Source: a virus (taxonomy: Duplodnaviria > Caudoviricetes). From it: 64,000 nt of DNA. The DNA is taken from IMG/VR virus record IMGVR_UViG_3300023178_000046, positions 836-64,835 of that record; one strand, given 5' to 3'. A program made the position numbers and the translations under genes. A model generated the notes under the pieces. That model was not told the DNA's origin and ran no database searches. It saw only the letters and a list, made by a program, of their open reading frames with translations. Shown piece by piece: positions 19,592-63,382 of this stretch (its first letter is position 1; the number at the start of each line of letters is the position of its first letter).

Positions 19592-19594
19592 TAA

Positions 19595-19789
19595 CTACTC
19601 CCAATAAAGACCCCCAGCTCCATCGCTTTTGAGGACTTGGCCTGGCTGTCCTCCAGGAGGTATGATATAATTTTTTAAATCAGCAAGAGTTATGAGCTTT
19701 GATTTACTAGAATCATTAGCATCTGTACAGAGAAGTTTATCATCATCATTCAACTGTATATCAATATCATATCTTTTTATTCTTGCCAT
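19595..19789 (-). CDS. Small tail-associated protein
   Basis: MARI... N-terminus resembling 13263-15887; ends in GQVLKSDGAGGLYW fibre motif. Confidence 0.6.
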   Translation of the reverse strand: MARIKRYDIDIQLNDDDKLLCTDANDSSKSKLITLADLKNYIIPPGGQPGQVLKSDGAGGLYWE

Positions 19790-23518: not shown

Positions 23519-23772
23519 TACTGTTTAACAACACAACCATTAAGATCTGTGACCAAATAAATGTCTTCGCCAACTCTTATCTGACTAGAAGCTGCTTTAT
23601 CGTAATATATCCTATCTCCCTTCTCTAGATTGGTAACATCATCACCGCAAGTCACAACCTCTCCAGGCAAGTATCTTACATTTTTCTCTGAGTTAGTAGA
23701 AAGAAAAACTCCTTTAGACTCGATCTCTTCTTTCTCTGGTCTTATAACCACATATCTTCCTAACGCTATCAT
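23518..23772 (-). CDS. groES: Co-chaperonin GroES
   Basis: ALGRYVVIRP...GEVVTCGDDV...KGDRIYY; adjacent to groEL. Confidence 0.85.
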   Translation of the reverse strand: MIALGRYVVIRPEKEEIESKGVFLSTNSEKNVRYLPGEVVTCGDDVTNLEKGDRIYYDKAASSQIRVGEDIYLVTDLNGCVVKQ

Positions 23773-40783: not shown

Positions 40784-41229
40784 GAAGGAAGCCAAAGAAT
40801 AGACAAATAACTCGATCATCAAAAGTAAATTATAAAGGTATACAATTTGCCTCCAAATTAGAAATGCACATGTACAAACTGCTGTGCAAAGAAAAAATAG
40901 CAGTAGACTACGAAGGTAAAACATATGAAATAGTTAAGGGGTTTGATTTTGAGGCTGCAAGTTACGAAAAAACTAAGACCAGAAAAGAGTTGCACGATAG
41001 AGGCAATAAAAAGGTGCTTCCAATCAAATATACACCAGATTTTATCGATAGAAATAACCCACCTAGATTCATCATAGAATGCAAAGGAAATCCGAACGAA
41101 GCTTTTCCCCTTCGATGGAAGTTATTTAAAAAGCATCTAATGGATGAAAACATAAAAGCTGCACTTTTGATGCCAAGAAATCAAAAAGATTGCGCAGAGG
41201 TCATTAAAATAATAAAATCACTGATTTAG
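40780..41229 (+). CDS. Endonuclease (T7 endonuclease I/DUF1064-like)
   Basis: GIQFASKLE...YTPDF...IIECKG PD-(D/E)XK motif. Confidence 0.8.
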   Translation: MRRKPKNRQITRSSKVNYKGIQFASKLEMHMYKLLCKEKIAVDYEGKTYEIVKGFDFEAASYEKTKTRKELHDRGNKKVLPIKYTPDFIDRNNPPRFIIECKGNPNEAFPLRWKLFKKHLMDENIKAALLMPRNQKDCAEVIKIIKSLI

Positions 41230-50836: not shown

Positions 50837-51586
50837 TTACAGGTTGCTCTTAGTAACCTCAGAGTCTACAGCATATAGCTCAATAGGCGATGTGCTTGAG
50901 TTTGTCATGGTGTACTTTGTGTAATACCCTCTAACTCCTTCCGACTCGGAGGTTTGATTTTTACCCAACATAATAAAATCACCTGAAACAGGCATAGACG
51001 ATATATTTTTAATTGTTATCGAATTCAAATTAATACTTTCAACAACCCCAACAAGAGTCATATCCCCAATCTCTGATGTTTCCTCATTAACAGTTGCTTT
51101 GTAAATATTGTCCTCCACGGATAATGTAGAGTCTGAAAAATCAGAAAAATTTATAGTGTCAGAGGAAACGCTTGTGCAAACTCCAATTCCTTGAAAAGTG
51201 AGCTTTTTCGTGTCTACCTCATCGTTATTGTTTCTAACGTACGCATAATACATGTTTTCTCTTTTAACAAAAGATTCTTTTTTTATGTGTCCGCTTTCAA
51301 TATCGCTGTCAACCAAAACATCCCAATTTTTACTGTTTCCTTCAGTCTTTACAGCCCTATACATTTTAACTTCAGAAGGCCCTTCGTTATTAACGAATTC
51401 AATCCTCGTGTCGTAAGATTCACCATAAAATGTATTTCTGTCATTATCATCTTTATGATGCACATATATTTGTCCATTTTTGAAAGTAAAATATTCATCA
51501 TTAAGATTGTCTATCCATTCTGGTTCATAAGAATAAAACGATGTCCATCCTTGTACCGATTTCTTATATGTTAATGTTTTAGCCAT
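50837..51586 (-). CDS. Tail stabilisation protein, C-terminal part as separate gene
   Basis: TLTY....GWTSFYSYEPE....L...FTFKNG.IY.H...RNTFYG...F..RE..YY...GVRGYY...ELYAV.SE...S resembles C-termini of podovirus stabilisation proteins. Confidence 0.65.
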   Translation of the reverse strand: MAKTLTYKKSVQGWTSFYSYEPEWIDNLNDEYFTFKNGQIYVHHKDDNDRNTFYGESYDTRIEFVNNEGPSEVKMYRAVKTEGNSKNWDVLVDSDIESGHIKKESFVKRENMYYAYVRNNNDEVDTKKLTFQGIGVCTSVSSDTINFSDFSDSTLSVEDNIYKATVNEETSEIGDMTLVGVVESINLNSITIKNISSMPVSGDFIMLGKNQTSESEGVRGYYTKYTMTNSSTSPIELYAVDSEVTKSNL

Positions 51587-51587
51587 A

Positions 51588-52727
51588 TTATAATATTCTT
51601 ACACTTAATGTAGCTGTACCGAATGCTCCTGAAGCACAGTCTAATGGTTCTAGCTGTAACTTGTAAATACCAACAGGTAACGTTATTGTTTTTGTTTCAA
51701 TAGTTGGTCCAGATTGGTCTCTACCGTTAATAACATATGGAGGCCATCCGTAAGGGTTTGATGGGAATGACACATATTGTGTGTAAATACCTGCATTATT
51801 CAACAACAATCTACCTGTAGCATAAACGTATTCACCTGTCGTAACATCCACCTCTATTTTAACTTCAACTTCCCCTTCAGCTTCGACATTGAATATTCCT
51901 GTTTGATTTACGCTATTTGAACAATTAACATTTATGGAAGTAGTTCCTGTAATTACCGCAGATTTATCTGGCACGACTGCTGGATCTGTACAGCACTCAG
52001 AACACTCACTATAAATAGGAGTAGTTGAGTTTATAATAACGTTATGAGCTTGCTGAGGAGAAACTTGTTCCCTGACCTCCCAACAACAAGAACTATTTTC
52101 AGTCTTAACAACTTGACCCTTGTTTAATTGTCTTGTTGTTCTCACTATTCTCCTTTCTTTGTTATTATAGCAATTTATCGTTTCGTAGTGATTTTTATTT
52201 ATATCTACGTCTGAAAAACCATCTGCCCATTCTACAAACTCTACGTCTATTTCTGCTCCACTATTCAAGAAAGGCTCAGTAAGAGATTCCATTTCCCTAT
52301 CTGTATCTGGATACATTATTTTTGAAACCTTTTGACCAGTAGAACAGTCTGTAATCTGGAAATAAGATGTGCGAACAGGATCTCTATTAGTGATAAGATA
52401 CACAGCACATTCTGTGTTAGCTACATCTAAGGTAACACAAGGATTACAAGTTGTCTGATCAGGTATAGGCTCTTCCTGTGGAACAAAAACAGGAACAGGT
52501 GTTGGTGAAGGTGATGGCGTCGGTGTAGGAGTAGTACCAGGCGCTGGAGCTGGTGTAGGAGCTGGCGTGGGCACATCGTACACATATAGAGGGCAAGACC
52601 TAGTATCTGTATAAGGCTCAATGTAATCTGGGTCAGAAGATTGATTTACCTTCGTTTCAGTTGTTGCCTTACCATTTATGTATTTTCTAAGTCTTGTAAC
52701 AGTCTTTAGTCCAGTAGTCTCTGCCAT
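51588..52727 (-). CDS. Virion decoration protein with PTPAP linker and Cys-rich modules
   Basis: N-terminal ...DPDYIEPYTD..CP module, PTPAPTPAPAPGTTPTPTPSPSPTP linker. Confidence 0.6.
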   Translation of the reverse strand: MAETTGLKTVTRLRKYINGKATTETKVNQSSDPDYIEPYTDTRSCPLYVYDVPTPAPTPAPAPGTTPTPTPSPSPTPVPVFVPQEEPIPDQTTCNPCVTLDVANTECAVYLITNRDPVRTSYFQITDCSTGQKVSKIMYPDTDREMESLTEPFLNSGAEIDVEFVEWADGFSDVDINKNHYETINCYNNKERRIVRTTRQLNKGQVVKTENSSCCWEVREQVSPQQAHNVIINSTTPIYSECSECCTDPAVVPDKSAVITGTTSINVNCSNSVNQTGIFNVEAEGEVEVKIEVDVTTGEYVYATGRLLLNNAGIYTQYVSFPSNPYGWPPYVINGRDQSGPTIETKTITLPVGIYKLQLEPLDCASGAFGTATLSVRIL

Positions 52728-52742
52728 CTACAGAATTTTCTA

Positions 52743-52750
52743 CAAAGATA
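52743..52750 (-). promoter_or_regulatory. Bacteroidota -7 promoter box TATCTTTG
   Basis: ~16 nt upstream of ATG 52727. Confidence 0.65.
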
Positions 52751-52755
52751 GTAAA

Positions 52756-53757
52756 TTAACCAACCTGCTTTTTTATCCAATCATAGGTCAACTGTACTCC
52801 ATCCTTTAATTGGTACTGAGGTTTCCATCCTATCAACTCAGATATTAGTCTGTTGTCGGAGGATCTTCCTCTAACACCCAAAGGCCCATCTATATGTTTT
52901 ATTTTTAACTTTTTTCCTGAAACGCTCATAACTGTATTTACAAGTCCATTGATGGTGACCATTTGCTCTGAACCAATATTAACAGGACCTAAATGCTTGT
53001 CTTGTCTCATGAAAGCAATTGTAGCGTCAATGGCATCGTCTATGTATAAGAATGATCTGGTTTGTTCGCCATCTCCCCATACTTCAACCACCTTGTCATT
53101 TTCAGCGACTTTTCTGCATATTGCGGCTGGTGCTTTTTCTTTCCCATCGTTCCAAGAACAATTTGGTCCATACACATTATGGTATCTAGCGATTCTTACA
53201 TCTAGATTTTCGTTTCTGTTTGCAGATAAATAAAGTCTTTCTGAAAAAAGTTTTTCCCAACCATATTCTGAATCAGGATTTGCAGGGTAAGCACTATCTT
53301 CTTCCGTGATAGGATTATCTGGATCAAGCTGGTTGTGCTCTGGATAAACACAAGCCGAACTAGAAAAAAATATTTTTTTGACGTTAAAAGAAACAGCGCT
53401 ATCAACTACATTCAAATTAATCTTTGATGAGTTAGACATAACCTGCAGGTCATTATCTCCAGAAAAAATGTATCCTGCTCCACCCATATCTGCTGCCAAA
53501 TTGTATACCTCGTCAAATGCGTTTTCACTATCATCTAACGACTTTTGATCTGGCGCATGCATGCATAAAGAAACAAAGGATGGATTTCTCAGGTCTACAG
53601 GAGCATATTCATCGCATATTTCTTCTTTTTTGTGAAAGGAAGGCTCTTTTTTTATATCTGCAACTCTCACAAAACAACCCTCTTCTTTTAATCTTTTGGC
53701 CAAATGACCACCAACGAAGCCACCTCCCCCTAATACTAGTACCTTTTTTTTACTCAT
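52756..53757 (-). CDS. GDP-mannose 3,5-epimerase-like extended SDR
   Basis: GGGGFVG, YNLAADMGGAGYI, SSSACVYP, PDSEYGWEKL, GKEKAPAAICRK, WGDGEQTRSFLYIDD, GPLGVRGR, all typical of GME. Confidence 0.88.
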   Translation of the reverse strand: MSKKKVLVLGGGGFVGGHLAKRLKEEGCFVRVADIKKEPSFHKKEEICDEYAPVDLRNPSFVSLCMHAPDQKSLDDSENAFDEVYNLAADMGGAGYIFSGDNDLQVMSNSSKINLNVVDSAVSFNVKKIFFSSSACVYPEHNQLDPDNPITEEDSAYPANPDSEYGWEKLFSERLYLSANRNENLDVRIARYHNVYGPNCSWNDGKEKAPAAICRKVAENDKVVEVWGDGEQTRSFLYIDDAIDATIAFMRQDKHLGPVNIGSEQMVTINGLVNTVMSVSGKKLKIKHIDGPLGVRGRSSDNRLISELIGWKPQYQLKDGVQLTYDWIKKQVG

Positions 53758-55684
53758 TTTGATTCATTTTAATTTCAGTTTCTATTTCTGCGACCCACTG
53801 ATCTACAGTTCTTTTTGTCTCCCTTGACTTAAATAAATGTAATGGATTTTTTATGTAATTATCCAATCTATTATCTTCATGCCACAAGGGTCTAAGCTTT
53901 TTGTCTCCTCTTTCTGTGTTGTCGTTGTAGTTATGCCAGACGTTAGCAAACTTAGGGACATAAAAATCATATCCTGCTATGTATGCTAAACAAGAGTATA
54001 TTTCTTGATCTAAAAACGGATTTATCAAAAGATCGTTATTATCATCGTATTTGATTACATCTACTATTTCTCCTCTTCCAAAAACATTAGAGCCTGACAC
54101 ATGAAAAGTTTTGCAGTATTTCTCACTCCTAGGCACGGTCCCTCTACTGTTAAAGAAAGGAAAAGCATTTTCTTTGAAATTTAATATTTTATTGCAATTA
54201 AGCCTATCGTGCTGTATATAATCATTGTATTCCGAGTAATTTCTTACATCTGGGGGGAATCCAGTTAGAAAGCTGTTCTCTGGAGATTCATCTATTTGTT
54301 GTGCTATACCTATGTCCCAATTCCTGTAGAATCTACAATGGCTGTCAACCTGTAAGAATATTTCCTCTCCATTATATAGTTCGTTGTTAATTCTATTTCT
54401 AGCGTAACCAACACCTTTTGCTTCTTTATAATGACAGTATATTATTTTTACATCACTCATCAGTCTTAACCTATCCAACATCCACTCTTCATCTTGTAGC
54501 ATTACACCAAAGACAAGTCTATTTGGAAAAGCAGCTTTCTCTCTTGCATCATCTATCGTTCTTATTAAATCTAAATCTCGATATGAGGCTATATTTATAA
54601 AGATCTTTCTGTCGTCTTTTTCAGGTGTCCAATAGTATTGAGATAAGTCGTGCCATGAAGATTGATTGTCTTTGTTCCAAGGTAAAACATCGTAAGCAGA
54701 ATCAACAGAGTCATGATTATTATATTCTAATATCCTGACGTTTTGATTTATTGACGCTCTATTTACATTTATGTAATCGCTAAAAGTGCTTAACCTGCTA
54801 CCTAAAAACTCTTCTGCATTACTACATGTTATCATGTCTAGCGCTATTTCTCTAAGAGGGTCTGTTATTTCATACAAATCTGAAAAGAAATGCTTATTTT
54901 GTATGTTTAATGAGTCAAAAAAGCTTTTGTCTTTTTCATCTGTTGCTATATAAACTGGTTTATCATAGAAGTAATCTGGAAGAAATTCATTTATAGCACT
55001 TAAATCATATTCCATATTAGGTCTATCTGATAAGAAATCACCCCTTCTTATGTGAAGTGCGTTGTAATTTCCCATCTTTTTCTTCGCTTCATTTGCATAC
55101 CTGTATAGATCTTGGTTAAAACGAATACCTCTGATTATCTTATTTTTTATGTAGTTTCTTTTGTCTGGAGAAGATCCATATACTATGTAATAGAAATGAC
55201 CAAACAGGTTTCTTGGAAAATGAATGAACTTAGCTTCAGAGTTTACAGAGAAAGGTTTTCTTCCTGCAGCAAACATTTCAAAATCTTCCTGATCTTCTAT
55301 ATTGTTATACACTACGAAATCCTTATCTGGAGGAGGCAACGGATGCAGTTCTTCGTATTTAGATGAGAAGGTTTTTATTTCTGCTATTTTATCTATGCCA
55401 TTAAAATATCCTATCTTACTGTTTAGAGAAGCATATTCTTCTACATCGTGATAATCAACAGCGTTAAATGTTTCTAAGAAAGTGTCTTTTCTCCAAATAC
55501 TAAATATATCTAGGTATGAGTTCGTGTCATTCCAGTCGTTAATACCATTAAAATAAACCTTCGGTGGTATTATCAATGTTCTTCCTGTTATTTCTGATAT
55601 AGCAATAGCTATCTCAAAAGACATTCTAACATTAGAATATCCTGCCCACCAAGGCTCAAAAGATATATACTTATTCTGCGACAT
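53750..55684 (-). CDS. Bifunctional glycosyltransferase: O-fucosyltransferase-like domain + GT60 (Gnt1-like hydroxyproline GlcNAc-transferase) domain
   Basis: N-half: GYSNVR...GRTLIIPP, ALHIRRGDF, VYIATDE, FLGSRLSTFS. C-half: IFINIASYRD, GVGYAR, LQVDSHCRF. Confidence 0.8.
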   Translation of the reverse strand: MSQNKYISFEPWWAGYSNVRMSFEIAIAISEITGRTLIIPPKVYFNGINDWNDTNSYLDIFSIWRKDTFLETFNAVDYHDVEEYASLNSKIGYFNGIDKIAEIKTFSSKYEELHPLPPPDKDFVVYNNIEDQEDFEMFAAGRKPFSVNSEAKFIHFPRNLFGHFYYIVYGSSPDKRNYIKNKIIRGIRFNQDLYRYANEAKKKMGNYNALHIRRGDFLSDRPNMEYDLSAINEFLPDYFYDKPVYIATDEKDKSFFDSLNIQNKHFFSDLYEITDPLREIALDMITCSNAEEFLGSRLSTFSDYINVNRASINQNVRILEYNNHDSVDSAYDVLPWNKDNQSSWHDLSQYYWTPEKDDRKIFINIASYRDLDLIRTIDDAREKAAFPNRLVFGVMLQDEEWMLDRLRLMSDVKIIYCHYKEAKGVGYARNRINNELYNGEEIFLQVDSHCRFYRNWDIGIAQQIDESPENSFLTGFPPDVRNYSEYNDYIQHDRLNCNKILNFKENAFPFFNSRGTVPRSEKYCKTFHVSGSNVFGRGEIVDVIKYDDNNDLLINPFLDQEIYSCLAYIAGYDFYVPKFANVWHNYNDNTERGDKKLRPLWHEDNRLDNYIKNPLHLFKSRETKRTVDQWVAEIETEIKMNQNE

Positions 55685-56900
55685 ACTGCCAGTCGCTTAG
55701 CTTATAATGAACGAACATATTTCTAAAGTATGTTCCTGCAAATAAATAATTCCTTGCGTGTTCACAAGCTGCTGACTCATATAAAATCATTTCCCCTACT
55801 TCAGCGTACACTTGATTCCATGCTCCGTTGTGAGATTGTATGTCTAATGGCCAATCATCGGCAAACTCCCTGTTTTTGCATCCACATTTTAAGTCTTTGT
55901 CTACGATAATAATAGAAGATATGTGATGCGTTGCTATTCTATCCTTATGCGCAACTAGACCAGCTCCTCTTAAATAAGATCTAATACCGTAAATAAATGA
56001 AGGCTCTAGTTTTGTTCTTGCAAACTCTTCGTGCAAAGGCAACAACATCTGATGAAGTCTATCTCTTTTTTCATACACCTGTCCCACATCTAAAAGCTCG
56101 CTTGTCTTTCCTGTTCCAGGGATTATACTTTCTTTGCCTTCAAAAACCTCCTCTCTTGCGGTAGGCTTCACATCTTCATACATCTCTTGTATTAAAGCCC
56201 ACGCATCATCTGGCACTTTTACAACTTTAAAGCCTGTCTCATGAAATTTAGGTATGTTGTCGTGATTACTAAAAACCTTTTTCAAGTCTGTTGATTTTGG
56301 CCTTCTGTTATGATGTTCTGTCGCTAGCCTTACATCTTCAGATCCATTCCATTCGTTCTCTCTCCACCAAGATGTAATTATGTATTTTGTTCCAGACACA
56401 ACATCTGTACCTTCATGAAGAGTATCGTGTTGAGGAATACCGTTCTTTGTGTTTTCCCAAAAAACAGCCTTACCTGTCTTAGGCTCTACTGTTTTATCTA
56501 AACTTGGAAAGTTAGTGCCACCTCCTTCAAAATCATCGTTAAGATAAATCATCATTGTGTATGTTCTGTTTCCAGAGCTAAGACAATGATTTGTGTAAGA
56601 ATCGCCTGTAAAATAATCGTGATGCTGTCTAAAGAATTGACCAGCTTCATATTTTTGACCCTGTATAGGCTCTCCTTTGCTTAAGTCTTGCTGTAAAAAA
56701 GACGCTATACGTCCCTTTACTTCAATAGTCAGACTATCATTAACATCAAGGTTCGATGTGTATGATGTTCTGGATGAGTCAGTTTTTGATGCTTGTGATC
56801 CAGATCCAGCTACAGAAGATCTTACATTGTTTGCTTCAATGTTTGATATAAGCTGATCACATTCTTCTTTCGTTAGAAAGTTCTCTATTTCTGTTATCAT
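55671..56900 (-). CDS. Prolyl 4-hydroxylase (2OG-Fe(II) oxygenase) fused to a second 2OG-Fe(II) domain
   Basis: IENFLTKEEC, SRTS, EPIQGQKYEAGQFFRQHHDYF, RTYTMMIYLND..GGGTNFP, LHEG..V..GTKY..W; second domain HKD...EHAR. Confidence 0.85.
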   Translation of the reverse strand: MITEIENFLTKEECDQLISNIEANNVRSSVAGSGSQASKTDSSRTSYTSNLDVNDSLTIEVKGRIASFLQQDLSKGEPIQGQKYEAGQFFRQHHDYFTGDSYTNHCLSSGNRTYTMMIYLNDDFEGGGTNFPSLDKTVEPKTGKAVFWENTKNGIPQHDTLHEGTDVVSGTKYIITSWWRENEWNGSEDVRLATEHHNRRPKSTDLKKVFSNHDNIPKFHETGFKVVKVPDDAWALIQEMYEDVKPTAREEVFEGKESIIPGTGKTSELLDVGQVYEKRDRLHQMLLPLHEEFARTKLEPSFIYGIRSYLRGAGLVAHKDRIATHHISSIIIVDKDLKCGCKNREFADDWPLDIQSHNGAWNQVYAEVGEMILYESAACEHARNYLFAGTYFRNMFVHYKLSDWQYVAE

Positions 56901-56925
56901 TGTATTTATATTTAATTATATTCAT

Positions 56926-58284
56926 TTAAAATCCACCATTTGCCGCAACACAACCTGAGCAATCATTAAATTCTGAAACCCAAGACAATGTTGGAGTATT
57001 ATTAGATGGCTGCATTAAAGTGTAACACTCTCCATCACTAGCTAATACTATATCTCCTGTCACGATTGAACCTGTGCTATCCCATGCAAGATACTGATTA
57101 TTTTGTCCATTTCCTCCTGCACAAGGTTGCAATTCCCAAGAAGCATATGAAACTGGAGCTGGTGTAGGTGCTACAGTAGGCGCAGGAGTTGTTTGTGAAT
57201 TAAGACACTCACTACAAGAATCAAACTCTTGATCTACAGTTTGAGTGGGAACTCCATTTGCTTGGTATGAATCTATTGTATAACAAATACCATTAGACGC
57301 TAAAATTACAACTCCTACATCTAAATTAGCATCATACGCTATTTGCTGATTGGCAGTTCCTCCGCTACACAGACCTAGATTCCAAACAGGTGTTTGTGAA
57401 ACTGGAGCAGGAGTTGGAGCAGGTGTTGCACAAGAACTGAAAGTAAACACAAATCCATTAGGTCCTACTTGGAAAGAGTTTCCTCCACCATATTGGTCCG
57501 TAAAGTATGTATTTCCTCCGTTATATAATGTTGTTAATGCGGCATCTAAATATAAAGCGTGCCCATTATTGTATGTTTGTTGAACAGAAGTATCTCCGTG
57601 AGAGTTGTATACTGTTACAGGAGCTCCAGTCGAAGAACAAGCTAAAGCAGAGCTGGACCATCCTTGCAATGGATTTGTTCCGCTCGAAGTATTGGCGTAT
57701 ATAGTAAATGAAGCTACTGCAGGCGCAGGAGCAGGTGTAGGTGAAGGTGTAGTAGGCGCTGGTGTAGTCGTTGGAGCTGGTGTTGTAGGAGCTGGTGACG
57801 GTGATGGTGTTGTAGGTGCTGGCGTTGGAGCTGGCGTAGGGGCTACGCAACTAAAAGTTGAAATCACAGTGCCATTAGATATTTCTATTCCAGATCCACT
57901 TGCGAGTATATAATGACCATCTGCATAATCAGATAAGCCTTGATTGTCTTGATAAACAGAATTACTTACACCTGGATAGCTGCCTGATCCATTATGATAA
58001 GCTGTAGTATATCCTCCAGAATGCGCACATGCTTGGACTCCATCTGTGTAACCCTGATCTGAAATAGCAAATGATGGGTATGAGAATACTGGAGCTGGTG
58101 TAGTCGTTGGAGCTGGTGTAGGAGCAGGAGTTACAGGGTCTGCACTTACAACACATTTAGCCGTGTCTTGAAAGGGAGGGATGTAATCTGGGTCTCCTTT
58201 TGAGTTAGGTTTTGTGTCTAAAGTAGCAATTCCGTCTACTAGCTTTTTTAGCTCTGTAACTACAACTATACCAGTATTAGCCAT
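56926..58284 (-). CDS. Virion decoration protein with four Pro/Thr linkers and Cys modules
   Basis: N-terminal DPDYIPPFQD..C module; PTPAPTTP tracts separating Cys-bounded domains. Confidence 0.6.
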   Translation of the reverse strand: MANTGIVVVTELKKLVDGIATLDTKPNSKGDPDYIPPFQDTAKCVVSADPVTPAPTPAPTTTPAPVFSYPSFAISDQGYTDGVQACAHSGGYTTAYHNGSGSYPGVSNSVYQDNQGLSDYADGHYILASGSGIEISNGTVISTFSCVAPTPAPTPAPTTPSPSPAPTTPAPTTTPAPTTPSPTPAPAPAVASFTIYANTSSGTNPLQGWSSSALACSSTGAPVTVYNSHGDTSVQQTYNNGHALYLDAALTTLYNGGNTYFTDQYGGGNSFQVGPNGFVFTFSSCATPAPTPAPVSQTPVWNLGLCSGGTANQQIAYDANLDVGVVILASNGICYTIDSYQANGVPTQTVDQEFDSCSECLNSQTTPAPTVAPTPAPVSYASWELQPCAGGNGQNNQYLAWDSTGSIVTGDIVLASDGECYTLMQPSNNTPTLSWVSEFNDCSGCVAANGGF

Positions 58285-58300
58285 TAAAAATAATTTTACA

Positions 58301-58308
58301 CAAAGTTA
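58301..58308 (-). promoter_or_regulatory. Bacteroidota -7 promoter box TAACTTTG
   Basis: ~17 nt upstream of ATG 58284. Confidence 0.65.
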
Positions 58309-59226
58309 CTAATTTTTGAGACTCGCTTCTTTTAGTAAGCCATAGTATTGATAGGAGCATTTTTTTTCATCTAGCTTCAAATCTGAAGCAAACGGATCGT
58401 TATGTATGTAAGCTCCTTTGTAGAACATTCCTGTGTGTGAGGAGGTAACACCAGCGTTGTGATATATAGAACAATGATCCCATCTTTTTATAGGATCTGT
58501 TGCCCAACAAAAGTCCATATCTGGATGTATTCTTGTCTCTATACCCCTCATCCAAGCCATCCATAATGTAGCCCACATTTCGGCAGTCCAAACCTGTAAC
58601 ATGTGATAGTTAGGGTCTGCTTTCTTTTTAGCCTTCTCATATACATTTGTCATCTTGTAAAGCTTAACGCCCATACTGTAACAGTCGTACCAGAATTTTG
58701 CGTCTACATTTTTGACAATATATTGCGCTCCTCCAGAATTATCTTCATTTTTCTTGACAGTATCTTCATCAATGCCTGTTGTAATGAGCATAGTTTCTAA
58801 GGTATCCCTACCCTTAGACATAATATAATTATATCCTAAGTAGCTTTTAGTGTCGCTTAGATACCAGATATCGTCATTACATAAATGATCTAGACTAGGA
58901 TTTTTAGTAAAAGCGATATCAGAATCATGAAAAAAAACGGAATCATTTCTCGTTTCAGGAAATTGCTCATAGTATCTAAATAACAAATAATGTTTTATGC
59001 TTGGTATGTAAGACTTATCAGGCCTACCATCTTTATACCTGTGTATAGATATACCAGGGTACTTGCCTTCTAAATGTGAAAACCATTGTTTAGGTTGGTT
59101 GGGTAAAACAGATGCCAATATATGAACATCTCTCATTTCTATGCCTGCTTTTTGAAAAGAATAAAGCATGACATCTAGTTGCCAAGAGAAATAATGATTC
59201 TCTGGTTGAGCACATATATATTTCAT
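58309..59226 (-). CDS. Glycosyltransferase resembling plant HPAT/SGT1 (GT95/GT96)
   Basis: YFSWQLDVMLYSF..AG, Y.PSIK, FHDSDIAF (DxD), WTAEMWA, IYHNAG parallel the YFDWQ...SF, DxD and WxxEMY motifs of HPAT/SGT1 as I recall them. Confidence 0.65.
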   Translation of the reverse strand: MKYICAQPENHYFSWQLDVMLYSFQKAGIEMRDVHILASVLPNQPKQWFSHLEGKYPGISIHRYKDGRPDKSYIPSIKHYLLFRYYEQFPETRNDSVFFHDSDIAFTKNPSLDHLCNDDIWYLSDTKSYLGYNYIMSKGRDTLETMLITTGIDEDTVKKNEDNSGGAQYIVKNVDAKFWYDCYSMGVKLYKMTNVYEKAKKKADPNYHMLQVWTAEMWATLWMAWMRGIETRIHPDMDFCWATDPIKRWDHCSIYHNAGVTSSHTGMFYKGAYIHNDPFASDLKLDEKKCSYQYYGLLKEASLKN

Positions 59227-59236
59227 TTTAATTCAA

Positions 59237-62200
59237 TTAACTACAAGGCGTACACATTGAAGAGAAGCTCGATCCACTCCAGTAACTATACTCATTATTC
59301 TTGGTATAGTATCCTGTTGATGCATAACCACTTGTATCTCCTGTGTAACAAGCACTAGCGACTTGATATACTTTAGACGAACTACACCAGTTAGAATTAT
59401 CAGTATAAACAACTACGTAACTTCCTTCACAAACGCTAGTTGAACTATAGTACACCCCATGAGCATAACAAGGTGCGTTAGTAGGCGTTGGAGCTGTTGG
59501 CGCTGGAGTAGTTGGTGCTGGCGTTGGTGACGGTGCTGGCGTTTCTGTTGGCGCTGGTGTTGTCGGTGCAGGAGTTGTAGGTGCAGGTGTAGCACATGTT
59601 GTATCAACTCCGACAGTACAAGTTATAGTTGTTCCTGAGTTAGTCCAATATGGGTCGCTTACATAGAAAGATGCACTAACACTTGCAGTTCCGCTATTTG
59701 GCGTAGCACTAGTTGGACTATAAGAAACTAATGTTTGATCGCTAAATCTAGCTGATACATCAATTGCTCCTGAATTACAATCAAAGCTAGTTACAAACCA
59801 ATATGAACCATGAGTACCACAACTGTATGTACTACAATTAGTTGTACATACTGGTGGTGGGTTTGTTGGTGTAGGAGCAACAGGAACTGGTGCATTAGTA
59901 GGTGTTGGAGCTACAGGTGGTGGTGATGTAGGCGCAGGGGTCGGATTAGGAGATGCTGCTGTTGGCGCTGGAGTTGTTGGAGCAGGGGTTGGAGCTGGTG
60001 TAGGCGCTACAGTAGGAGCAGGAGTTGGAATTGGAACGACCGCTTGTTCACAATAATACTTGTTTACAACCCAAGAAACATTACCTTTCTCACAATAGTA
60101 ATCATCTTCTCTCCACTCAATAACAGGGTCTTTTACATTTATTACATATAAATCATTATAAGGATCATATCCTCCAATAACCTGAGAGTTAGCTGTGTCT
60201 CCAACATTTTCTCTGAACCAGTCCTTCATTCCATATTCAGAAATCTCTTCTAAACCATTACTATCCAGTCTAACAACAGTTCCTCTCTTACTGTCTGTGA
60301 AAAATATGTCATTATACCATTTAGCAAAAGAAGATGGCGATTTTGATATTCCATATTCTCCTATATAAGGAACTTGTGTTCCTAATACATCTTCGGTTGA
60401 ACCAACATTTCCAGTTCCGTCTGCATTATATAAAACAGACTTTTCGAACATAATTTTACTAACCTTGTTCTCTTGGAAAACAATCAGGTCTGTATCTCTT
60501 GAAGATATTTTTTCAATAGACCCATATTTATCATCTATATCCCTAAAGTTAGATAAAGACAAATTAAATTCGTTAAGTCCATTGTAATTTGTAGATTGCT
60601 CATATCGACCACCATATGTTAATGAGGCTATTCTCTTATTTTGACGATAGCCTTCGTAGCTAATCAAAGGTCTTGCATTGTGCAACAATTCTTTTGCGTT
60701 AAAAGCATCTTTGTACTTATAACTTTCTATGGGTCCACCCCAAGTAAATGCGTTGAAGAAATCTAAAGTAACTAAAGCTGCTCTTCCTTCTGCTTGATCT
60801 CTATCTCCATTTGAGCCCTTATGATATCCTTGCTCCGTTATATCATATGTTTCTCCTATTTCATGAAAAGTATCATCATTTAATACTTTAGGCTTTGTTT
60901 CAAAAACAAGTAGAGAATCTCCTCTATCCTTCAGAACCATATTCCAGCTAGCCTCACAAAATACATTTGCCGACAAACCGTCAAGTATGCCTCCAAGCCA
61001 AGTGTGATCTCCTGATCCAATAAGATCTGCTAATCCTGCGTCTTGTGAATTTTGAGAATCTATGATCATGCACAAGGGGTCAGATGCGTTGTTTGTCACC
61101 TGAAAAGTTCTCCCTAATTCAGTTCCTGTATCTGTGACAACACCTCTTCTCCATTTAATCTTAGATTCAGGAATCTTTATGGTCATTTCTTCCTTCATCT
61201 GCTCATGCCAAAACTCCTCTATGTTTGGATAATATTTGCTTGAAAGAATGCTGGACGAAAATATATTAAAATAATCCGATCTTCTTTCATTGAAAGTCAA
61301 TCTCAACGTACTTCCTGGACCAACCTCTCTGTTATCTTCTGGGCCCACTAATACAACTTGAGCAAACTTTTCTTCATCGTATGAGGTTATTGGGTTTCTA
61401 GCATTTACAGTCCATCTTTCACCTAAAGAATGACCTGTAGATGCGTTAAATGAAATTCCAAGTCCATCTTGAAGCGAGTAACTTTGATTCATCAAAAGAT
61501 TCTCTGTCCATGGTCCTGTTCCATTTTCATCGGTTACCCTCCATTTAAAAGTATCAGTCGTTCCAATTGAATCAACCTCAATTTCGAATCTTTGATCCGT
61601 AGATCCACTAGGTGTTCCTGTAATAGACATGTCGTTCAAAGATGAGCCTGCAACCTGATAATAAAAAGGCCCTTCAAAATATCTTACTGTCTGTTCGTTT
61701 GTGATCCTATTGCTAAGCTGACCTGTTTTTCTTCTTGAGTTGTCCTCGTCTCTACTTGTTTTCTTAAAATAACCTGCATCACTAATGCTATATCCTGAAG
61801 GCTTTAACTTCATATAGGTTCCCTCTTCCTGCAAAATTTCACCTATACCAGCAGATCCTGAAGTATCAAGAAAGTTTCTATCTTTTTGTCCAAACTCTAG
61901 AACTTTTGTTTCTACATAATTATCTTTTTTCCCTGATGTATCAGATTTTACAACAAGAAAATCACCTTCTTTAAACTTATCCAAATCAGCCTTCTCTACC
62001 TTAACCCAAGCAAAATCAGAGTCAGTAAAAAATATTACAGGAGTTACTGTTTCATACTGGCTTTCATTTTCTTTTAAGAATAATCTATAATGCTTTGCCC
62101 ATTTAGGTGCAATATTTTTTATTGTTAATTGAAGTTTATTTTTTCTATCAGAATATCCAACTGGTATTTTTACAGCATTATTTTCGCAAGTCATTACCGT

Positions 62201-63382
62201 AGACATTCTTCCATATTCATCGAGGTAAACAATGCCTGCCTCATAACTTCGGTTACTCTTTATTGTTCTAGTTGGGTTAGAGAAAGGAACAAACGTAGAG
62301 AGGTGGTTCAAAGTGAAATCGAAGTTTATCTCTTCATTATTCACGTCAACCATATCGTAGTTTTCCGTGTAGTTTGCGTAAATGAGCCTATTTCCAATAA
62401 TATCTTGTGTTTCGGCTTTTAATGGGACATTGTCAAATAGCCTAGTGCTTTCGTCAGAAGGAAGCACAGTATATATCTTGCTGTTTTTAAATGAAAAAGT
62501 ATAGTCTGAGTTATCTGACAACTTTAACTTGCTTTTTTTAAAATTTTCTATCAAAAATATTCTTGACGAATCAGACTCTCTAAAACACAAATCAATCGAA
62601 ACAACATTAGAGCCTCCTGTCTCAAAAGTTACATTTGCTTGATTGTATTGGTTTTTCATTGACTCATTAGTAGCCTCATCATAGTTGTAGAAAAACTCTC
62701 TTGCATCAAATGCATATTCACTGAAAGGCCCAAGGCTACTAACCTCGCCATCAAGATATTTGTATCTGTAAGCAAACTGTATAAATTTATCAGTCAAGAA
62801 ATTCTCTTCACTGTTTCCAGTATTCACCAATTCAATCTCAGGCTGCCTTATGGGAGGTTTTACGATAACATTTATGTCGTCTTGTGTAAATCCGTTTTCA
62901 GAGTAAGTTTTTGCTCTTTGTATATTTATTTTTCTAGGTGGATTAAAGCCATCTGTCCAAAACAAAAAGTCCCTATCATTATCAGTGTCGTTAAGTATGT
63001 TTGCACTGTGTATTTTATTAAACCTTTGAAAATTTAGTACATTTTCACCTTCAGGTCTAGTGTCTGATAAAACAAAAGAGCTTGTTCCAGAAACATTATC
63101 GTATTCGCAAATATAAGAAGCAGAGGAAGTAACAACAAACCAATAAATTCTATTGTTTGCGTCATCTGCTATAGAACCTATAGTTTCTGGATTACTTCCT
63201 GAATAAGACAACAGTTGTCCAGCTAATCTGTTTGATTTAGCATTTTTTAAAACGCCTGTATCAGCATCTACAACGCTAGAAACCAAAACATTTTCAGCAT
63301 GAATATACTCGTCATTTTTTAACAAGCGTTCATCCGCATCTTTATTCATGCGACCAGAAAGGAATACGTTTTGTAGCTTCAT
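59237..63382 (-). CDS. Tail stabilisation protein (P22 gp10-like), N-terminal part with Pro/Thr-rich C-terminal extension
   Basis: MNKDADERLL..EY..AEN, LFWTDGFNPPRKIN, FAYRYKY.DGE.S, GNRLIYANY, GIVYLDEYGR, NGLNEF, GEYGIS..P.SFA, ISEYGMKDWFR, GGYDPY; then PTPAP tracts. Confidence 0.8.
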   Translation of the reverse strand: MKLQNVFLSGRMNKDADERLLKNDEYIHAENVLVSSVVDADTGVLKNAKSNRLAGQLLSYSGSNPETIGSIADDANNRIYWFVVTSSASYICEYDNVSGTSSFVLSDTRPEGENVLNFQRFNKIHSANILNDTDNDRDFLFWTDGFNPPRKINIQRAKTYSENGFTQDDINVIVKPPIRQPEIELVNTGNSEENFLTDKFIQFAYRYKYLDGEVSSLGPFSEYAFDAREFFYNYDEATNESMKNQYNQANVTFETGGSNVVSIDLCFRESDSSRIFLIENFKKSKLKLSDNSDYTFSFKNSKIYTVLPSDESTRLFDNVPLKAETQDIIGNRLIYANYTENYDMVDVNNEEINFDFTLNHLSTFVPFSNPTRTIKSNRSYEAGIVYLDEYGRMSTVMTCENNAVKIPVGYSDRKNKLQLTIKNIAPKWAKHYRLFLKENESQYETVTPVIFFTDSDFAWVKVEKADLDKFKEGDFLVVKSDTSGKKDNYVETKVLEFGQKDRNFLDTSGSAGIGEILQEEGTYMKLKPSGYSISDAGYFKKTSRDEDNSRRKTGQLSNRITNEQTVRYFEGPFYYQVAGSSLNDMSITGTPSGSTDQRFEIEVDSIGTTDTFKWRVTDENGTGPWTENLLMNQSYSLQDGLGISFNASTGHSLGERWTVNARNPITSYDEEKFAQVVLVGPEDNREVGPGSTLRLTFNERRSDYFNIFSSSILSSKYYPNIEEFWHEQMKEEMTIKIPESKIKWRRGVVTDTGTELGRTFQVTNNASDPLCMIIDSQNSQDAGLADLIGSGDHTWLGGILDGLSANVFCEASWNMVLKDRGDSLLVFETKPKVLNDDTFHEIGETYDITEQGYHKGSNGDRDQAEGRAALVTLDFFNAFTWGGPIESYKYKDAFNAKELLHNARPLISYEGYRQNKRIASLTYGGRYEQSTNYNGLNEFNLSLSNFRDIDDKYGSIEKISSRDTDLIVFQENKVSKIMFEKSVLYNADGTGNVGSTEDVLGTQVPYIGEYGISKSPSSFAKWYNDIFFTDSKRGTVVRLDSNGLEEISEYGMKDWFRENVGDTANSQVIGGYDPYNDLYVINVKDPVIEWREDDYYCEKGNVSWVVNKYYCEQAVVPIPTPAPTVAPTPAPTPAPTTPAPTAASPNPTPAPTSPPPVAPTPTNAPVPVAPTPTNPPPVCTTNCSTYSCGTHGSYWFVTSFDCNSGAIDVSARFSDQTLVSYSPTSATPNSGTASVSASFYVSDPYWTNSGTTITCTVGVDTTCATPAPTTPAPTTPAPTETPAPSPTPAPTTPAPTAPTPTNAPCYAHGVYYSSTSVCEGSYVVVYTDNSNWCSSSKVYQVASACYTGDTSGYASTGYYTKNNEYSYWSGSSFSSMCTPCS

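What the first reader, a model, noticed from the sequence alone, without database searches (positions are those of the whole stretch)
51588..59226. Phage-encoded, eukaryote-like hydroxyproline O-glycosylation system with its own extensin/mucin-like virion substrates
Seen in sequence: one co-oriented block in the tail module encodes an HPAT/SGT1-like GT (58309-59226), a PTPAP-linker protein (56926-58284), a prolyl 4-hydroxylase (55671-56900), an O-FucT/GT60 fusion (53750-55684), a GDP-mannose 3,5-epimerase (52756-53757) and a second PTPAP protein (51588-52727). Established: P4H then Gnt1 (GT60) are the first steps of the Dictyostelium/Toxoplasma Skp1 hydroxyproline glycosylation pathway; P4H then HPAT (GT95) and SGT1 (GT96) modify plant/algal extensins; GME makes GDP-L-galactose. 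Inference: the phage hydroxylates Pro in its (P-T/S/A)n linkers and builds Hyp- or Ser/Thr-linked glycans in the host cytoplasm. The result would be stiff, protease-resistant glycosylated tail appendages, perhaps for adhesion to algal particles, as bait for glycan-foraging Bacteroidota, or for shielding. I know of no described bacteriophage Hyp-glycosylation pathway, but cannot check the literature here.
Basis: partly seen in the sequence, partly recalled or inferred. Interest (0 to 1): 0.93.

Follow-up and report, generated by a model that had tools for sequence, protein, structure and literature searches.

The report
Phage proline-hydroxylase/glycosylation cassette for tail appendages
A marine crAss-like phage carries, wedged into its split tail-tip gene, a prolyl hydroxylase and sugar-adding enzymes next to tail proteins with long proline-rich stalks, which suggests what the very common but unexplained viral prolyl hydroxylase genes of the sea are for.

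Summary
All six ORFs lie at the stated coordinates. Five family calls are solid: a prolyl 4-hydroxylase (P4H) with a second oxygenase domain, an O-FucT/GT60 fusion, a GDP-mannose 3,5-epimerase (GME), and two proteins with (X-Pro)n linkers. The sixth enzyme is a GT8-like GT-A glycosyltransferase with only weak signals of the HPAT (hydroxyproline O-arabinosyltransferase) family.

The block is cargo inserted between the two halves of a split crassvirus muzzle (tail-tip) gene. Across 102 distinct related loci, 24 of 32 with the P4H also had a Pro-rich linker, against 2 of 70 without it. The P4H is paired with either a GT60 gene (16 loci) or a 276-aa gene that passes Pfam's HPAT cut-off in 2 of 7 members (9 loci), never both.

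Best reading (about 0.5): the P4H hydroxylates linker prolines of tail-tip appendage proteins, and the transferases then build O-glycans on Hyp and/or Thr.

Caveats:
- Nothing is shown biochemically.
- There are only 2-3 phylogenetically independent contrasts.
- Some P4H loci lack Pro-rich genes.
- The 305-aa transferase also occurs with a poly-Thr linker and no P4H.

My searches found no paper describing such a phage system. First-stage readers of this scan had already noted the same features on this same stretch.

The parts
59237..63382 (-). Muzzle (tail-tip) protein, N-terminal part, 1381 aa. Its last ~280 residues (about nt 59237-60085) are an extension with two (X-Pro)n linkers (residues 1112-1178 and 1264-1304) and Cys-containing modules. 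Candidate substrate.
   Evidence: Pfam crAss_MUZ E 9.6e-17; phrog_14478 E 9e-253; Pro-rich runs
58309..59226 (-). 305-aa GT-A glycosyltransferase (phrog_4417), GT8-like fold, with invariant D101-x-D103.
   Evidence: phrog_4417 E 3.9e-79. AF2 pLDDT 94.9. VIA-align: glycogenin Z 15.6, rmsd 3.0, 211 aligned; LgtC Z 14.7; Skp1 Gat1 Z 14.5. Invariant columns. PF23452 HPAT hit in 4 of 30 homologues, best E 3.4e-4.
56926..58284 (-). 452-aa accessory protein: conserved ~45-aa N-terminal module, three (X-Pro)n linkers (residues 50-66, 147-192, 286-300) and Cys-containing globular modules. Candidate substrate.
   Evidence: the N-terminal module recurs in relatives
55671..56900 (-). 409-aa double 2OG/Fe(II) oxygenase. 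The N domain is a collagen/extensin-type prolyl 4-hydroxylase (H93, D95, H162, K172 invariant). The C domain is a second, PhyH/HalB-like oxygenase (H318, D320, H381 invariant).
   Evidence: Pfam PF13640. PDB sequence hits: B. anthracis P4H 7e-25, PBCV-1 vCPH 8e-14. Alignment A3. VIA-align: Z 22.1 Chlamydomonas P4H-1, 20.1 vCPH; C domain Z 14.5 HalB.
53750..55684 (-). 644-aa fusion of an O-FucT-like GT (residues 15-309) and a GT60 GlcNAc-transferase-like GT (residues ~360-592).
   Evidence: Pfam PF10250 and PF11397, both above cut-off; POFUT2 4ap5 E 0.0094
52756..53757 (-). 333-aa GDP-mannose 3,5-epimerase. Likely supplies GDP-L-galactose/L-gulose.
   Evidence: PDB 2c59 E 2.1e-85, full length; found only together with the O-FucT-like domain in relatives
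51588..52727 (-). 379-aa accessory protein with the same N-terminal module, one (X-Pro)n linker (residues 52-80) and a Cys-containing C-terminal part. Candidate substrate.
50837..51586 (-). 249-aa muzzle C-terminal domain protein, the other half of the split muzzle gene.
   Evidence: Pfam crAss_MUZ_C E 1.7e-11; phrog_15100 positions 1552-1650 of 1783; fused to the N part in 7 of 80 related loci
16995..19604 (-). 869-aa protein beside a tail-fibre gene, with two long (A-P-T-V/P)n linkers encoded by 12-bp tandem repeats. Candidate substrate in trans.
   Evidence: tandem repeats at 19231-19406 (14.7 copies) and 18352-18478

Best explanation
The block is a virion-maturation cassette carried as cargo at the break of a split muzzle (tail-tip) gene in a marine crAss-like phage.

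Its substrates are the alternating (X-Pro)n linkers. These join small Cys-containing modules in the muzzle extension, in two accessory proteins that share an N-terminal docking module, and probably in a distant 869-aa fibre-like protein.

Proposed steps, all in the host cytoplasm before assembly:
1. The N domain of the 409-aa enzyme hydroxylates linker prolines to 4-Hyp (inferred).
2. The GT60 domain puts a first HexNAc on Hyp, or on Thr (inferred).
3. The O-FucT-like domain extends or adds L-galactose from GDP-L-Gal made by the epimerase (inferred).
4. The 305-aa GT8-like enzyme adds a further, probably Ser/Thr-linked or chain-extending, sugar (inferred).
5. The second oxygenase domain does a further oxidation of peptide or sugar (unknown).

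The result would be stiff, glycan-coated stalks on appendages at the tail tip.

Shown here: the gene families, the insertion site and the co-occurrence. Not shown: any chemistry.
For: 1. Enzyme identities.
- The P4H fold and metal/2OG residues are conserved. The nearest structures are the enzymes solved or named for X-Pro/collagen-type peptides: Chlamydomonas P4H-1 (Z 22.1; entry 3gze holds a (Ser-Pro)5 peptide), chlorovirus vCPH (Z 20.1), B. anthracis P4H and human C-P4H-II.
- GT60, O-FucT and GME are identified.

2. Location.
- The block sits between crAss_MUZ and crAss_MUZ_C genes.
- In 80 loci anchored on the C-part gene, that part is fused to the N part in 7 loci. In most others it is adjacent, or separated by about one gene.
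- In the P4H loci where both halves were seen, the gap is 3.5-7.3 kb.

3. Co-occurrence over 102 distinct loci.
- 24 of 32 loci with the P4H N domain have 13 or more Pro in some 30-aa window, against 2 of 70 without it.
- Of 21 P4H loci with at least 3 kb upstream, 17 have such a linker.
- P4H-less relatives keep homologous accessory proteins with the same N-terminal modules but without Pro linkers (L042, L031).

4. Proline is the constant.
- Linker Pro is 41-52% in every group, while Thr+Ser ranges from 8% to 43%. P-x-P far outnumbers P-P.
- The L079 linker has almost no Ser/Thr, yet sits with P4H plus an O-FucT-like gene.

5. Glycosyltransferase partners.
- Of 28 P4H loci with at least 2.5 kb downstream, 16 have GT60 and 8 have a 276-aa gene starting 1 nt before the P4H match ends.
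- That 276-aa gene scores 30.7 and 26.2 bits on Pfam HPAT (cut-off 23.9) in 2 of 7 members.
- GT60 and the 276-aa gene never occur together.

6. An unrelated context.
- L004 has a tape-measure gene, a 1121-aa protein with long Pro linkers, the P4H and the HPAT-family gene in a row.

7. Other sugar-tailoring genes ride in the same slot: carbamoyltransferase, DegT aminotransferase, GNAT and a methyltransferase.

8. GME occurs in 9 loci, and all 9 have the O-FucT-like domain.
Against: - No biochemical or proteomic data exist.
- The P4H label needs only 3 changes on the muzzle-C tree. Only 2 (starred branches) to 3 independent contrasts exist, so the association cannot reach significance once relatedness is counted.
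- Full-length P4H homologues occur without any Pro-rich gene within 10 kb: L018 in a DNA-metabolism context, and L020/L021/L024 beside a T4-like fibre gene.
- L078 has GT60 and a short P/T linker but no P4H within the ~10 kb upstream (the GT60 gene lies in the 3.4-kb gap between the muzzle halves), so GT60 may act on Thr.
- L031 has the 305-aa GT with a poly-Thr linker and no P4H.
- L065 and L071 have P4H and linkers but no GT in the slot.
- L080 keeps only the C-terminal oxygenase domain.
- The window's 305-aa GT fails PF23452.
- For the chlorovirus P4H, a review reports that attempts to find Hyp in virions failed (PMC7019647, passages).
Confidence: 0.5

Rival explanations
1. Hydroxylation and glycosylation are separate. 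The P4H makes Hyp only to stiffen or stabilise the polyproline-II stalks. All transferases work mucin-style on Thr/Ser of the same linkers or on the Cys-containing modules, so there is no sugar on Hyp.
For: - L031: the 305-aa GT plus a second GT sit with a proline-free poly-Thr linker and no P4H.
- L078: GT60 with a P/T linker and no P4H.
- L065 and L071: P4H and linkers without a GT in the slot.
- The 305-aa GT family lies in structural modules of 77 phage records, where I saw no P4H in the two regions read.
- From recall: GT60 includes Thr-directed enzymes, and POFUTs act on Ser/Thr of small Cys-rich modules.
Against: - Eight loci pair the P4H directly with a gene of the Pfam HPAT family.
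- The L079 and L080 linkers have only 8-10% Ser+Thr, yet carry an O-FucT-like gene.
- GT60 and the HPAT-family gene replace each other beside the same P4H. This is easiest to explain if both use its product.
Confidence: 0.27
2. The oxygenase and transferases act on host or non-virion targets: a translation factor or ribosomal protein as for bacterial PPHD or Tpa1/OGFOD1, or host surface glycans. The Pro-rich linkers are ordinary spacers that merely travel in the same variable region.
For: - The two-DSBH-domain architecture aligns with OGFOD1 and Tpa1 (Z 13.8 and 12.7, but rmsd 11-12 A).
- A B. anthracis P4H entry is titled as modifying EF-Tu (5v7y).
- P4H homologues occur without Pro-rich genes nearby (L018, L020 type).
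- Viral P4HA is usually filed as an auxiliary metabolic gene of cryptic role (PMC9301287, passages).
Against: - The N domain is much closer to collagen/extensin-type P4Hs (Z 19.6-22.1, 27-36% identity) than to the EF-Tu or HIF/Skp1 types (Z 14.7-17.2, 15-19% identity).
- The contingency with Pro-rich linkers is 24/8 against 2/68.
- The position is inside the tail-tip gene.
- The C domain keeps its own metal triad, unlike what I recall for Tpa1.
Confidence: 0.1
3. There is no joint function. The slot between the muzzle halves is simply a hot spot that collects unrelated morons, and the apparent association is shared ancestry.
For: - The slot holds varied cargo in P4H-less relatives, with gaps of 0.7-5.2 kb.
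- Only 2-3 independent contrasts exist.
Against: - The genes overlap by 8-14 nt in the window, and by a few nt in relatives, as in operons.
- The same P4H plus GT plus linker-protein set recurs in a siphovirus-like locus (L004).
- Accessory proteins lose the Pro linker where the P4H is absent.
Confidence: 0.06

Closest known systems
Chlorovirus PBCV-1 prolyl 4-hydroxylase (vCPH) and algal/plant extensin-type P4Hs (Chlamydomonas P4H-1)
   Same: A virus-encoded, small, soluble P4H of the same structural class (Z 20.1 and 22.1). The genomes also encode proteins with alternating-Pro repeats. That such repeats are substrates is recalled from Eriksson et al. 1999, which I saw only as a citation.
   Different: - This is a bacteriophage, not a virus of a eukaryote.
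- The P4H is fused to a second oxygenase domain.
- It lies in an operon with its candidate substrates and with glycosyltransferases.
- For PBCV-1 the role is unknown and Hyp was not found in virions (PMC7019647).
Skp1 hydroxyproline glycosylation pathway of Dictyostelium/Toxoplasma (PhyA, then Gnt1 of GT60, then further GTs)
   Same: A cytoplasmic P4H together with a GT60-family transferase, followed by further soluble GTs. The 305-aa GT also resembles the pathway's last enzyme, Gat1, in fold (Z 14.5). The pathway itself is known to me from recall and from abstracts in a search listing.
   Different: - The P4H here is not of the PhyA/PHD class (Z 15.2, 18% identity).
- The target is a repetitive linker, not one Pro of Skp1.
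- The fucosyltransferase-like domain is PF10250, not (as I recall) the GT74 of PgtA.
- Whether GT60 here uses Hyp or Thr is unknown.
Plant/algal extensin and AGP modification (P4H, then HPAT of GT95 and SGT1 of GT96)
   Same: A P4H with an HPAT-family gene directly beside it in 8-9 related loci, and X-Pro repeat substrates.
   Different: - In the window itself the HPAT-family gene is absent. The 305-aa GT gives only weak HPAT signals.
- The system is cytoplasmic, not Golgi.
- Prolines are non-contiguous.
- GT96 could not be tested.
Mycobacteriophage virion glycosylation (Freeman et al. 2023)
   Same: Phage-encoded glycosyltransferases next to structural genes are proposed or shown to glycosylate virion proteins.
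   Different: Known to me only from recall and as a citation; the paper is not held. As recalled, it concerns capsid and tail-tube C-terminal extensions, with no hydroxylase involved.
Crassvirus muzzle protein gp44 of PhicrAss001
   Same: The flanking genes are the two parts of this tail-tip protein. The structure paper says it probably contacts the cell surface (PMC10172136, passages).
   Different: Here the gene is split. Its N part is extended by linkers and modules, and 7.3 kb of cargo lies in the break.

Membership tests
Collagen/extensin-type prolyl 4-hydroxylase (Pfam PF13640; structural class of Cr-P4H-1, vCPH, BaP4H) | Double-stranded beta-helix fold closest to known P4Hs | tested here: met
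   VIA-align Z 22.1 (rmsd 1.7, 168 aligned) to 2jij; 20.1 to 5c5t; 19.7 to 5iax; 19.6 to 7zsc. Pfam 60.3 bits against cut-off 27.
Collagen/extensin-type prolyl 4-hydroxylase (Pfam PF13640; structural class of Cr-P4H-1, vCPH, BaP4H) | HxD...H iron triad and 2OG-binding Lys | tested here: met
   H93, D95, H162 and K172 are invariant in 14 homologues and align with the B. anthracis enzyme. The roles of these residues are from recall.
Collagen/extensin-type prolyl 4-hydroxylase (Pfam PF13640; structural class of Cr-P4H-1, vCPH, BaP4H) | Hydroxylates peptidyl proline | not testable with these tools
   Needs an enzyme assay or mass spectrometry.
GT60 (Pfam PF11397 'GlcNAc') | Scores above the family's curated cut-off | tested here: met
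   95.3 bits against 21, residues 407-592, profile positions 94-278 of 352. Stand-alone forms in relatives score 116.9-253.4 bits.
GT60 (Pfam PF11397 'GlcNAc') | Acceptor is Hyp (Gnt1 type) rather than Thr/Ser | not testable with these tools
   Context points both ways: paired with the P4H in 16 loci, but present without the P4H in L078.
GDP-fucose protein O-fucosyltransferase superfamily (PF10250) | Scores above the curated cut-off | tested here: met
   56.3 bits against 31.5, nearly full profile (10-323 of 326). Donor and acceptor are unknown.
GDP-mannose 3,5-epimerase | Full-length similarity that separates it from other SDR sugar epimerases | tested here: met
   E 2.1e-85 to 2c59 over 5-332, against 7.7e-24 for the next family.
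GDP-mannose 3,5-epimerase | Catalytic Cys/Lys acid-base pair and Tyr-x-x-x-Lys | tested here: met
   In the printed alignment the Cys, Tyr, Lys and Lys positions of the plant enzyme are identical in the query. Which residues are catalytic is recalled.
GDP-mannose 3,5-epimerase | A curated equivalog model for the family | tested here: inconclusive
   NCBIfam listed no GME model. All 22 hits were other SDR families, far below their cut-offs.
HPAT / GT95 (Pfam PF23452), for the window's 305-aa protein | Scores above the curated cut-off (23.9 bits) | tested here: not met
   No hit even at E up to 10. The six-frame search of the genome found nothing, but its controls did not ring either. Four of 30 homologues hit, best E 3.4e-4. 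One Atlas neighbour cluster has HPAT on 10% of its members.
HPAT / GT95 (Pfam PF23452), for the window's 305-aa protein | GT-A fold with a DxD motif | tested here: met
   GT8-like GT-A fold, Z 15.6; D101 and D103 invariant. This feature is shared with many families. My fold searches listed no GT95 structure.
HPAT / GT95 (Pfam PF23452), for the 276-aa gene next to the P4H in related loci (not in the window) | Scores above the curated cut-off | tested here: met
   L015 30.7 bits and L018 26.2 bits, against 23.9. The other 5 of 7 members gave no hit. The top Atlas cluster has HPAT on 40% of its members.
SGT1 / GT96 | Any sequence or fold match | not testable with these tools
   No model or sequence of this family was available in the libraries I could query.
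Skp1-type pathway (PhyA-class P4H) | The P4H belongs to the PHD/PhyA class | tested here: not met
   Dictyostelium PhyA 6t8m: Z 15.2, 18% identity, well below the collagen/extensin class.
Crassvirus muzzle protein | Pfam crAss_MUZ and crAss_MUZ_C | tested here: met
   60.8 bits and 44.8 bits against cut-off 27, on two separate ORFs.

The most novel reading that the evidence does not exclude
This would be the first hydroxyproline O-glycosylation system outside eukaryotes, and it is common in marine phages. One two-headed prolyl hydroxylase is coupled interchangeably to a GT60 or to an HPAT/GT95-family transferase, the two enzyme families known to put sugar on Hyp. Together they decorate (X-Pro)n stalks of tail-tip appendages. 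The abundant viral 'P4HA auxiliary metabolic gene' would then be a virion-maturation enzyme. Phages would be a reservoir, and possibly a source, of enzyme families thought of as eukaryotic.
Probability: 0.35. Interest if true: 0.9.

Novelty: new variant of a known kind. Interest (0 to 1): 0.78.

Why it matters
Viral P4HA is among the commonest 'auxiliary metabolic genes' in brackish and marine water. It was found at 62% of Baltic water stations, and the authors call its use by viruses cryptic (PMC9301287, passages). The two-domain form found here has at least 505 clusters of relatives in public metagenomes.

This locus names concrete substrates and partner enzymes, so the question becomes a simple co-expression and mass-spectrometry experiment.

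If Hyp-linked glycans are found:
- protein Hyp glycosylation would no longer be a eukaryote-only chemistry;
- phage virion glycosylation would extend beyond actinophages to the tail tip of crAss-like phages, where it could bear on host recognition;
- it would offer a compact bacterial toolkit (P4H plus GTs active in a bacterial cytoplasm) for making Hyp glycopeptides.

Tried and rejected
- Near-identity DNA search of 51000-60000 in the phage collection: no match.
- PDB sequence search with the 305-aa protein: only chance-level rows.
- NCBIfam: nothing for 5 of 6 proteins, and no GME model.
- PF23452 six-frame search of the window's own record: nothing. The control genomes did not ring either, so this says little.
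- Profile-profile comparison of the 305-aa family with the 276-aa HPAT-family gene: probability 1%, E 0.052. Their kinship is therefore not shown, despite the Atlas neighbourhood.
- Phylogenetically corrected co-occurrence test: only 2-3 pairs, median p 0.5, so it is underpowered.
- My first linker definition (Pro plus Thr/Ser/Ala) missed the Val/Gln-rich linkers of L079 and L092. I replaced it by a Pro count per 30 residues.
- The fusion protein query found only one viral locus, so I used the P4H and the muzzle C part as anchors instead.
- I considered a complex prediction of the P4H with a linker protein and did not run it, because enzyme-substrate pairs are said to be rarely informative.
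- I considered and rejected DNA or LPS as GT targets. The grounds were family (all three GT families are protein- or glycan-directed as far as I recall) and position. I did not test this.

Literature searches:
- 'crAss-like' + 'prolyl 4-hydroxylase': 0 papers.
- 'bacteriophage' + 'hydroxyproline' + 'prolyl 4-hydroxylase' + 'glycosylation': 12 papers, none by title or abstract start on a phage Hyp system.
- 'GT60' + 'phage': 6 papers held, 5 listed, none relevant.
- 'hydroxyproline O-arabinosyltransferase' + 'phage': 2 papers held, 1 listed, a plant review.
- 'Crassvirales'/'glycosyltransferase'/'muzzle': 34 papers held, 10 listed, none on this.
- 'phage' + 'prolyl 4-hydroxylase' + 'tail': 40 papers held, 20 listed, none describing it.
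- Also.
- Supplements were closed and were not consulted. Subscription papers are not covered.

Full report
**What is there**

They are tightly packed: the P4H and the fusion gene overlap by 14 nt, and the fusion gene and the epimerase by 8 nt.

Family assignments:
- The 409-aa protein hits Pfam PF13640, and the 644-aa protein hits both PF10250 (O-FucT) and PF11397 (GlcNAc/GT60), all above the curated cut-offs.
- The 333-aa protein is a GDP-mannose 3,5-epimerase. Its E-value to the Arabidopsis enzyme is 2.1e-85 over its whole length, against 7.7e-24 for the next SDR family. The Cys, Tyr and two Lys that I recall as catalytic are identical in the printed alignment.
- The 452-aa and 379-aa proteins have no family hit, but carry runs of alternating proline.
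- The window is nearly the whole of a 64,835-base virus record rated complete.

**Where it sits**

The ORF upstream (59237-63382) hits Pfam crAss_MUZ and phrog_14478. The ORF downstream (50837-51586) hits crAss_MUZ_C, and it matches the far C-terminus of a long virion protein family.

The phage is therefore crAss-like, and the block lies in the break of a split muzzle gene. In PhicrAss001 the muzzle is the hexameric tail-tip assembly, thought to gate ejection and to contact the cell (PMC10172136, passages).

The muzzle N part itself ends in about 280 residues of Pro linkers and Cys-containing modules. A fourth linker protein (16995-19604, 869 aa) lies beside a tail-fibre gene 30 kb away. Its linkers are encoded by 12-bp tandem repeats. 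Only these four ORFs in the window reach 11 or more Pro in a 30-residue window.

**The oxygenase**

An alignment of 14 homologues shows two sets of invariant metal ligands. H93, D95, H162 and K172 lie in the first half; H318, D320 and H381 lie in the second.

The AlphaFold model has pLDDT 86.3.
- N domain: closest to Chlamydomonas P4H-1 (Z 22.1, rmsd 1.7, 168 aligned), chlorovirus vCPH (20.1), B. anthracis P4H (19.7) and human collagen P4H-II (19.6).
- N domain against other classes: clearly lower for the EF-Tu-type Pseudomonas enzyme (17.2), Dictyostelium PhyA (15.2) and PHD2 (14.7).
- C domain (217-409): resembles HalB (14.5), an uncharacterised Oceanicola protein (13.4), and the sugar-oxidising AviO1/EvdO1 group (12.5, 11.1). 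Its substrate is open.

**The 305-aa transferase**

It belongs to phrog_4417, a family with 872 relatives at E 1e-5 or better among 1033 candidates. None of the 120 listed has a Pfam domain, and the few names given are uninformative.

Its model (pLDDT 94.9) is a GT8-like GT-A fold. The best matches are glycogenin (Z 15.6), LgtC (14.7), the Skp1 alpha-galactosyltransferase Gat1 (14.5) and the serine-rich-repeat glycosylase GlyE (14.2). D101-x-D103 is invariant.

Evidence for 'HPAT-like' is weak:
- The protein itself has no hit.
- Four of 30 homologues touch PF23452, best E 3.4e-4.
- One neighbouring Atlas cluster carries HPAT on 10% of its members.

Homologues occur in 77 phage records, mostly of Gram-positive hosts. 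In the two regions I read they lie inside the structural module: after the major tail protein in phiFL1C, and one gene after the major capsid protein in PLE3. That fits a virion-protein glycosyltransferase, but not one that needs Hyp.

**Relatives anchored on the P4H**

A search with the P4H found 25 viral loci at 52-90% identity over its full length. Wherever flanks allowed, the order was:
virion protein - muzzle N - Pro-linker protein(s) - P4H - transferases - muzzle C.

The cargo varies by group:
- an O-FucT-like domain fused to a carbamoyltransferase, plus a separate GT60 and the epimerase;
- GT60 with a radical-SAM/SPASM protein;
- a 276-aa gene with a DegT aminotransferase and a GNAT;
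- a small methyltransferase.

**Relatives anchored on the muzzle C part**

This search hit at least 535 relatives, of which 80 were fetched. In 7 of the 80 the C part is fused to the N part. In most it is adjacent, or separated by about one gene. In the P4H loci where both halves were seen, the gap is 3.5-7.3 kb. The break in the muzzle gene is thus a cargo slot.

**Co-occurrence**

Eight loci were dropped first: five second copies of contigs already present, and three GenBank loci fetched for another question. That left 102 loci including the window.

| | Pro-rich linker present (13+ Pro in some 30-aa window) | absent |
|---|---|---|
| P4H N domain present (32 loci) | 24 | 8 |
| P4H N domain absent (70 loci) | 2 | 68 |

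- Two of the eight exceptions are fragments with no upstream sequence (L013, L091).
- The other six are real: L018, L020/L021/L024 and L025/L026. The last pair reaches 11 Pro.
- The two P4H-negative loci with linkers are L078, which has a GT60 gene, and L080, which keeps only the C-terminal oxygenase domain.

P4H-less relatives keep accessory proteins with the same N-terminal modules. After the module they carry either no linker (L042) or a proline-free poly-Thr linker (L031).

Linker composition points to proline as the constant. Pro is 41-52% in every group, Thr+Ser runs from 8% to 43%, and P-x-P far outnumbers P-P.

One locus of a different phage type repeats the pattern: tape-measure gene, a 1121-aa protein with linkers of 73 and 100 residues, P4H, then the 276-aa gene (L004).

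**How much the association is worth**

On a tree of the muzzle C part (90 rows), the P4H label needs only 3 changes, of which well-supported branches force at least 2. Only 2-3 independent contrasts exist, and the linker trait goes the same way in most of them. No significance is reachable. The raw table therefore overstates the evidence. What carries weight is three things together: the concerted loss of the linker in P4H-less sisters, the separate L004 context, and the operon structure.

**The sugar link**

Of 28 P4H loci with at least 2.5 kb downstream:
- 16 have GT60;
- 8 have the 276-aa gene, which starts 1 nt before the P4H match ends;
- 4 have neither (L065 and L071 have no transferase; L079 and L080 have only the O-FucT-like gene).

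GT60 and the 276-aa gene never occur together.

The 276-aa gene has no Pfam hit in five members. It passes the HPAT cut-off of 23.9 bits in two, at 30.7 and 26.2 bits. Its nearest Atlas cluster carries HPAT on 40% of its members.

So two families whose characterised members put sugar on hydroxyproline alternate next to one prolyl hydroxylase. That Gnt1 and HPAT are such enzymes is from recall and from the Pfam family name. This is the best argument for Hyp-linked glycans.

Against it:
- GT60 occurs without the P4H in L078.
- The 305-aa GT occurs with poly-Thr in L031.
- As I recall, GT60 also includes Thr-directed enzymes.

The epimerase occurs in 9 loci, and all 9 have the O-FucT-like domain. 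Seven O-FucT loci lack the epimerase. This fits the idea that the domain can use GDP-L-galactose, an analogue of GDP-fucose.

**Verdict**

The most likely account is a virion-maturation cassette. It hydroxylates and glycosylates the (X-Pro)n stalks of tail-tip appendages. I put about 0.5 on this overall: somewhat more on 'the P4H acts on the linkers', and less (about 0.35) on 'sugars sit on Hyp'.

The main rival keeps both modifications but places all sugars on Thr/Ser. Host-directed action and pure hitch-hiking are less likely.

**Known or new**

Viral P4H is known from chloroviruses, where its role is still unknown and Hyp was not found in virions (PMC7019647, passages). Marine virome work lists P4HA among the most frequent viral auxiliary genes and calls its use cryptic (PMC9301287, passages).

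Phage virion glycosylation is known from mycobacteriophages. I saw that only as a citation, because the paper is not held.

Nine of my literature searches turned up no description of a phage hydroxyproline or proline-linker modification system. Supplements and subscription journals were not covered.

First-stage readers of this scan had noted the same features on this same stretch: the split muzzle, the double oxygenase, the shared N-terminal module, the epimerase-to-FucT link and the distant linker gene. I checked each here.

I file the finding as a new variant of known kinds, with high interest because it is widespread and directly testable. The two-domain P4H has at least 505 clusters of relatives.

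Noticed in passing
window 50837-51586 and 59237-63382; loci L035, L036, L055, L059, L064, L069, L106: In this marine clade the muzzle gene is usually split into an N part and a ~250-aa C part. It is one ORF in 7 of 80 loci. The break serves as a cargo slot holding 0 to 7 kb of varied genes. How the two parts reassemble into the propeller is unknown.
   Followed up: partly
L031:6429-9987: In the closest P4H-less relative the slot holds four genes: the 305-aa GT, a radical-SAM/SPASM protein, a second GT (Mannosyl_trans3-like) and an accessory protein whose linker is poly-Thr instead of Pro-rich. This is a possible mucin-type variant of the same idea.
   Followed up: partly
window 56926-58284, 51588-52727; L042:9038-9964, L043:5287-6246, L078:6559-8646 and others: Two kinds of conserved ~45-aa N-terminal module head the accessory proteins in the slot. 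They are followed by small repeated Cys-containing modules of unknown fold, probably a docking module plus binding modules. They were not folded.
   Followed up: no
L017:11248-12054, L023, L027, L031:7337-8386: A radical-SAM/SPASM protein rides in the same slot in several lineages, with or without the P4H. It could be another peptide-modifying enzyme for the appendage proteins.
   Followed up: no
L020:3474-10682 (also L021, L024): The same P4H sits beside a T4-like tail-fibre gene, in what looks like a different phage type. It is followed by a 1205-aa protein with O-FucT and GT60 domains and by a carbamoyltransferase. No Pro-rich gene lies within the locus.
   Followed up: partly
window 23769-25364: A phage-encoded GroEL-like chaperonin (phrog_5725, E 1e-127).
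   Followed up: no
window 41218-48204: A 2328-aa ORF just downstream of the tail-tip genes has almost no family signal (two weak PHROG hits at ~8e-5). A relative in L002 shares only about 30% identity with it. It may be a virion cargo protein.
   Followed up: no
window 18352-18478 and 19231-19406: The linker-coding DNA of the 869-aa protein consists of 12-bp tandem repeats (14.7 copies at 86% match). Linker length may therefore change by slippage.
   Followed up: partly
L080:4803-5405: One lineage keeps only the C-terminal oxygenase domain, as a 200-aa ORF. It sits next to a Pro/Val-rich linker protein, an O-FucT-like gene and a carbamoyltransferase.
   Followed up: no
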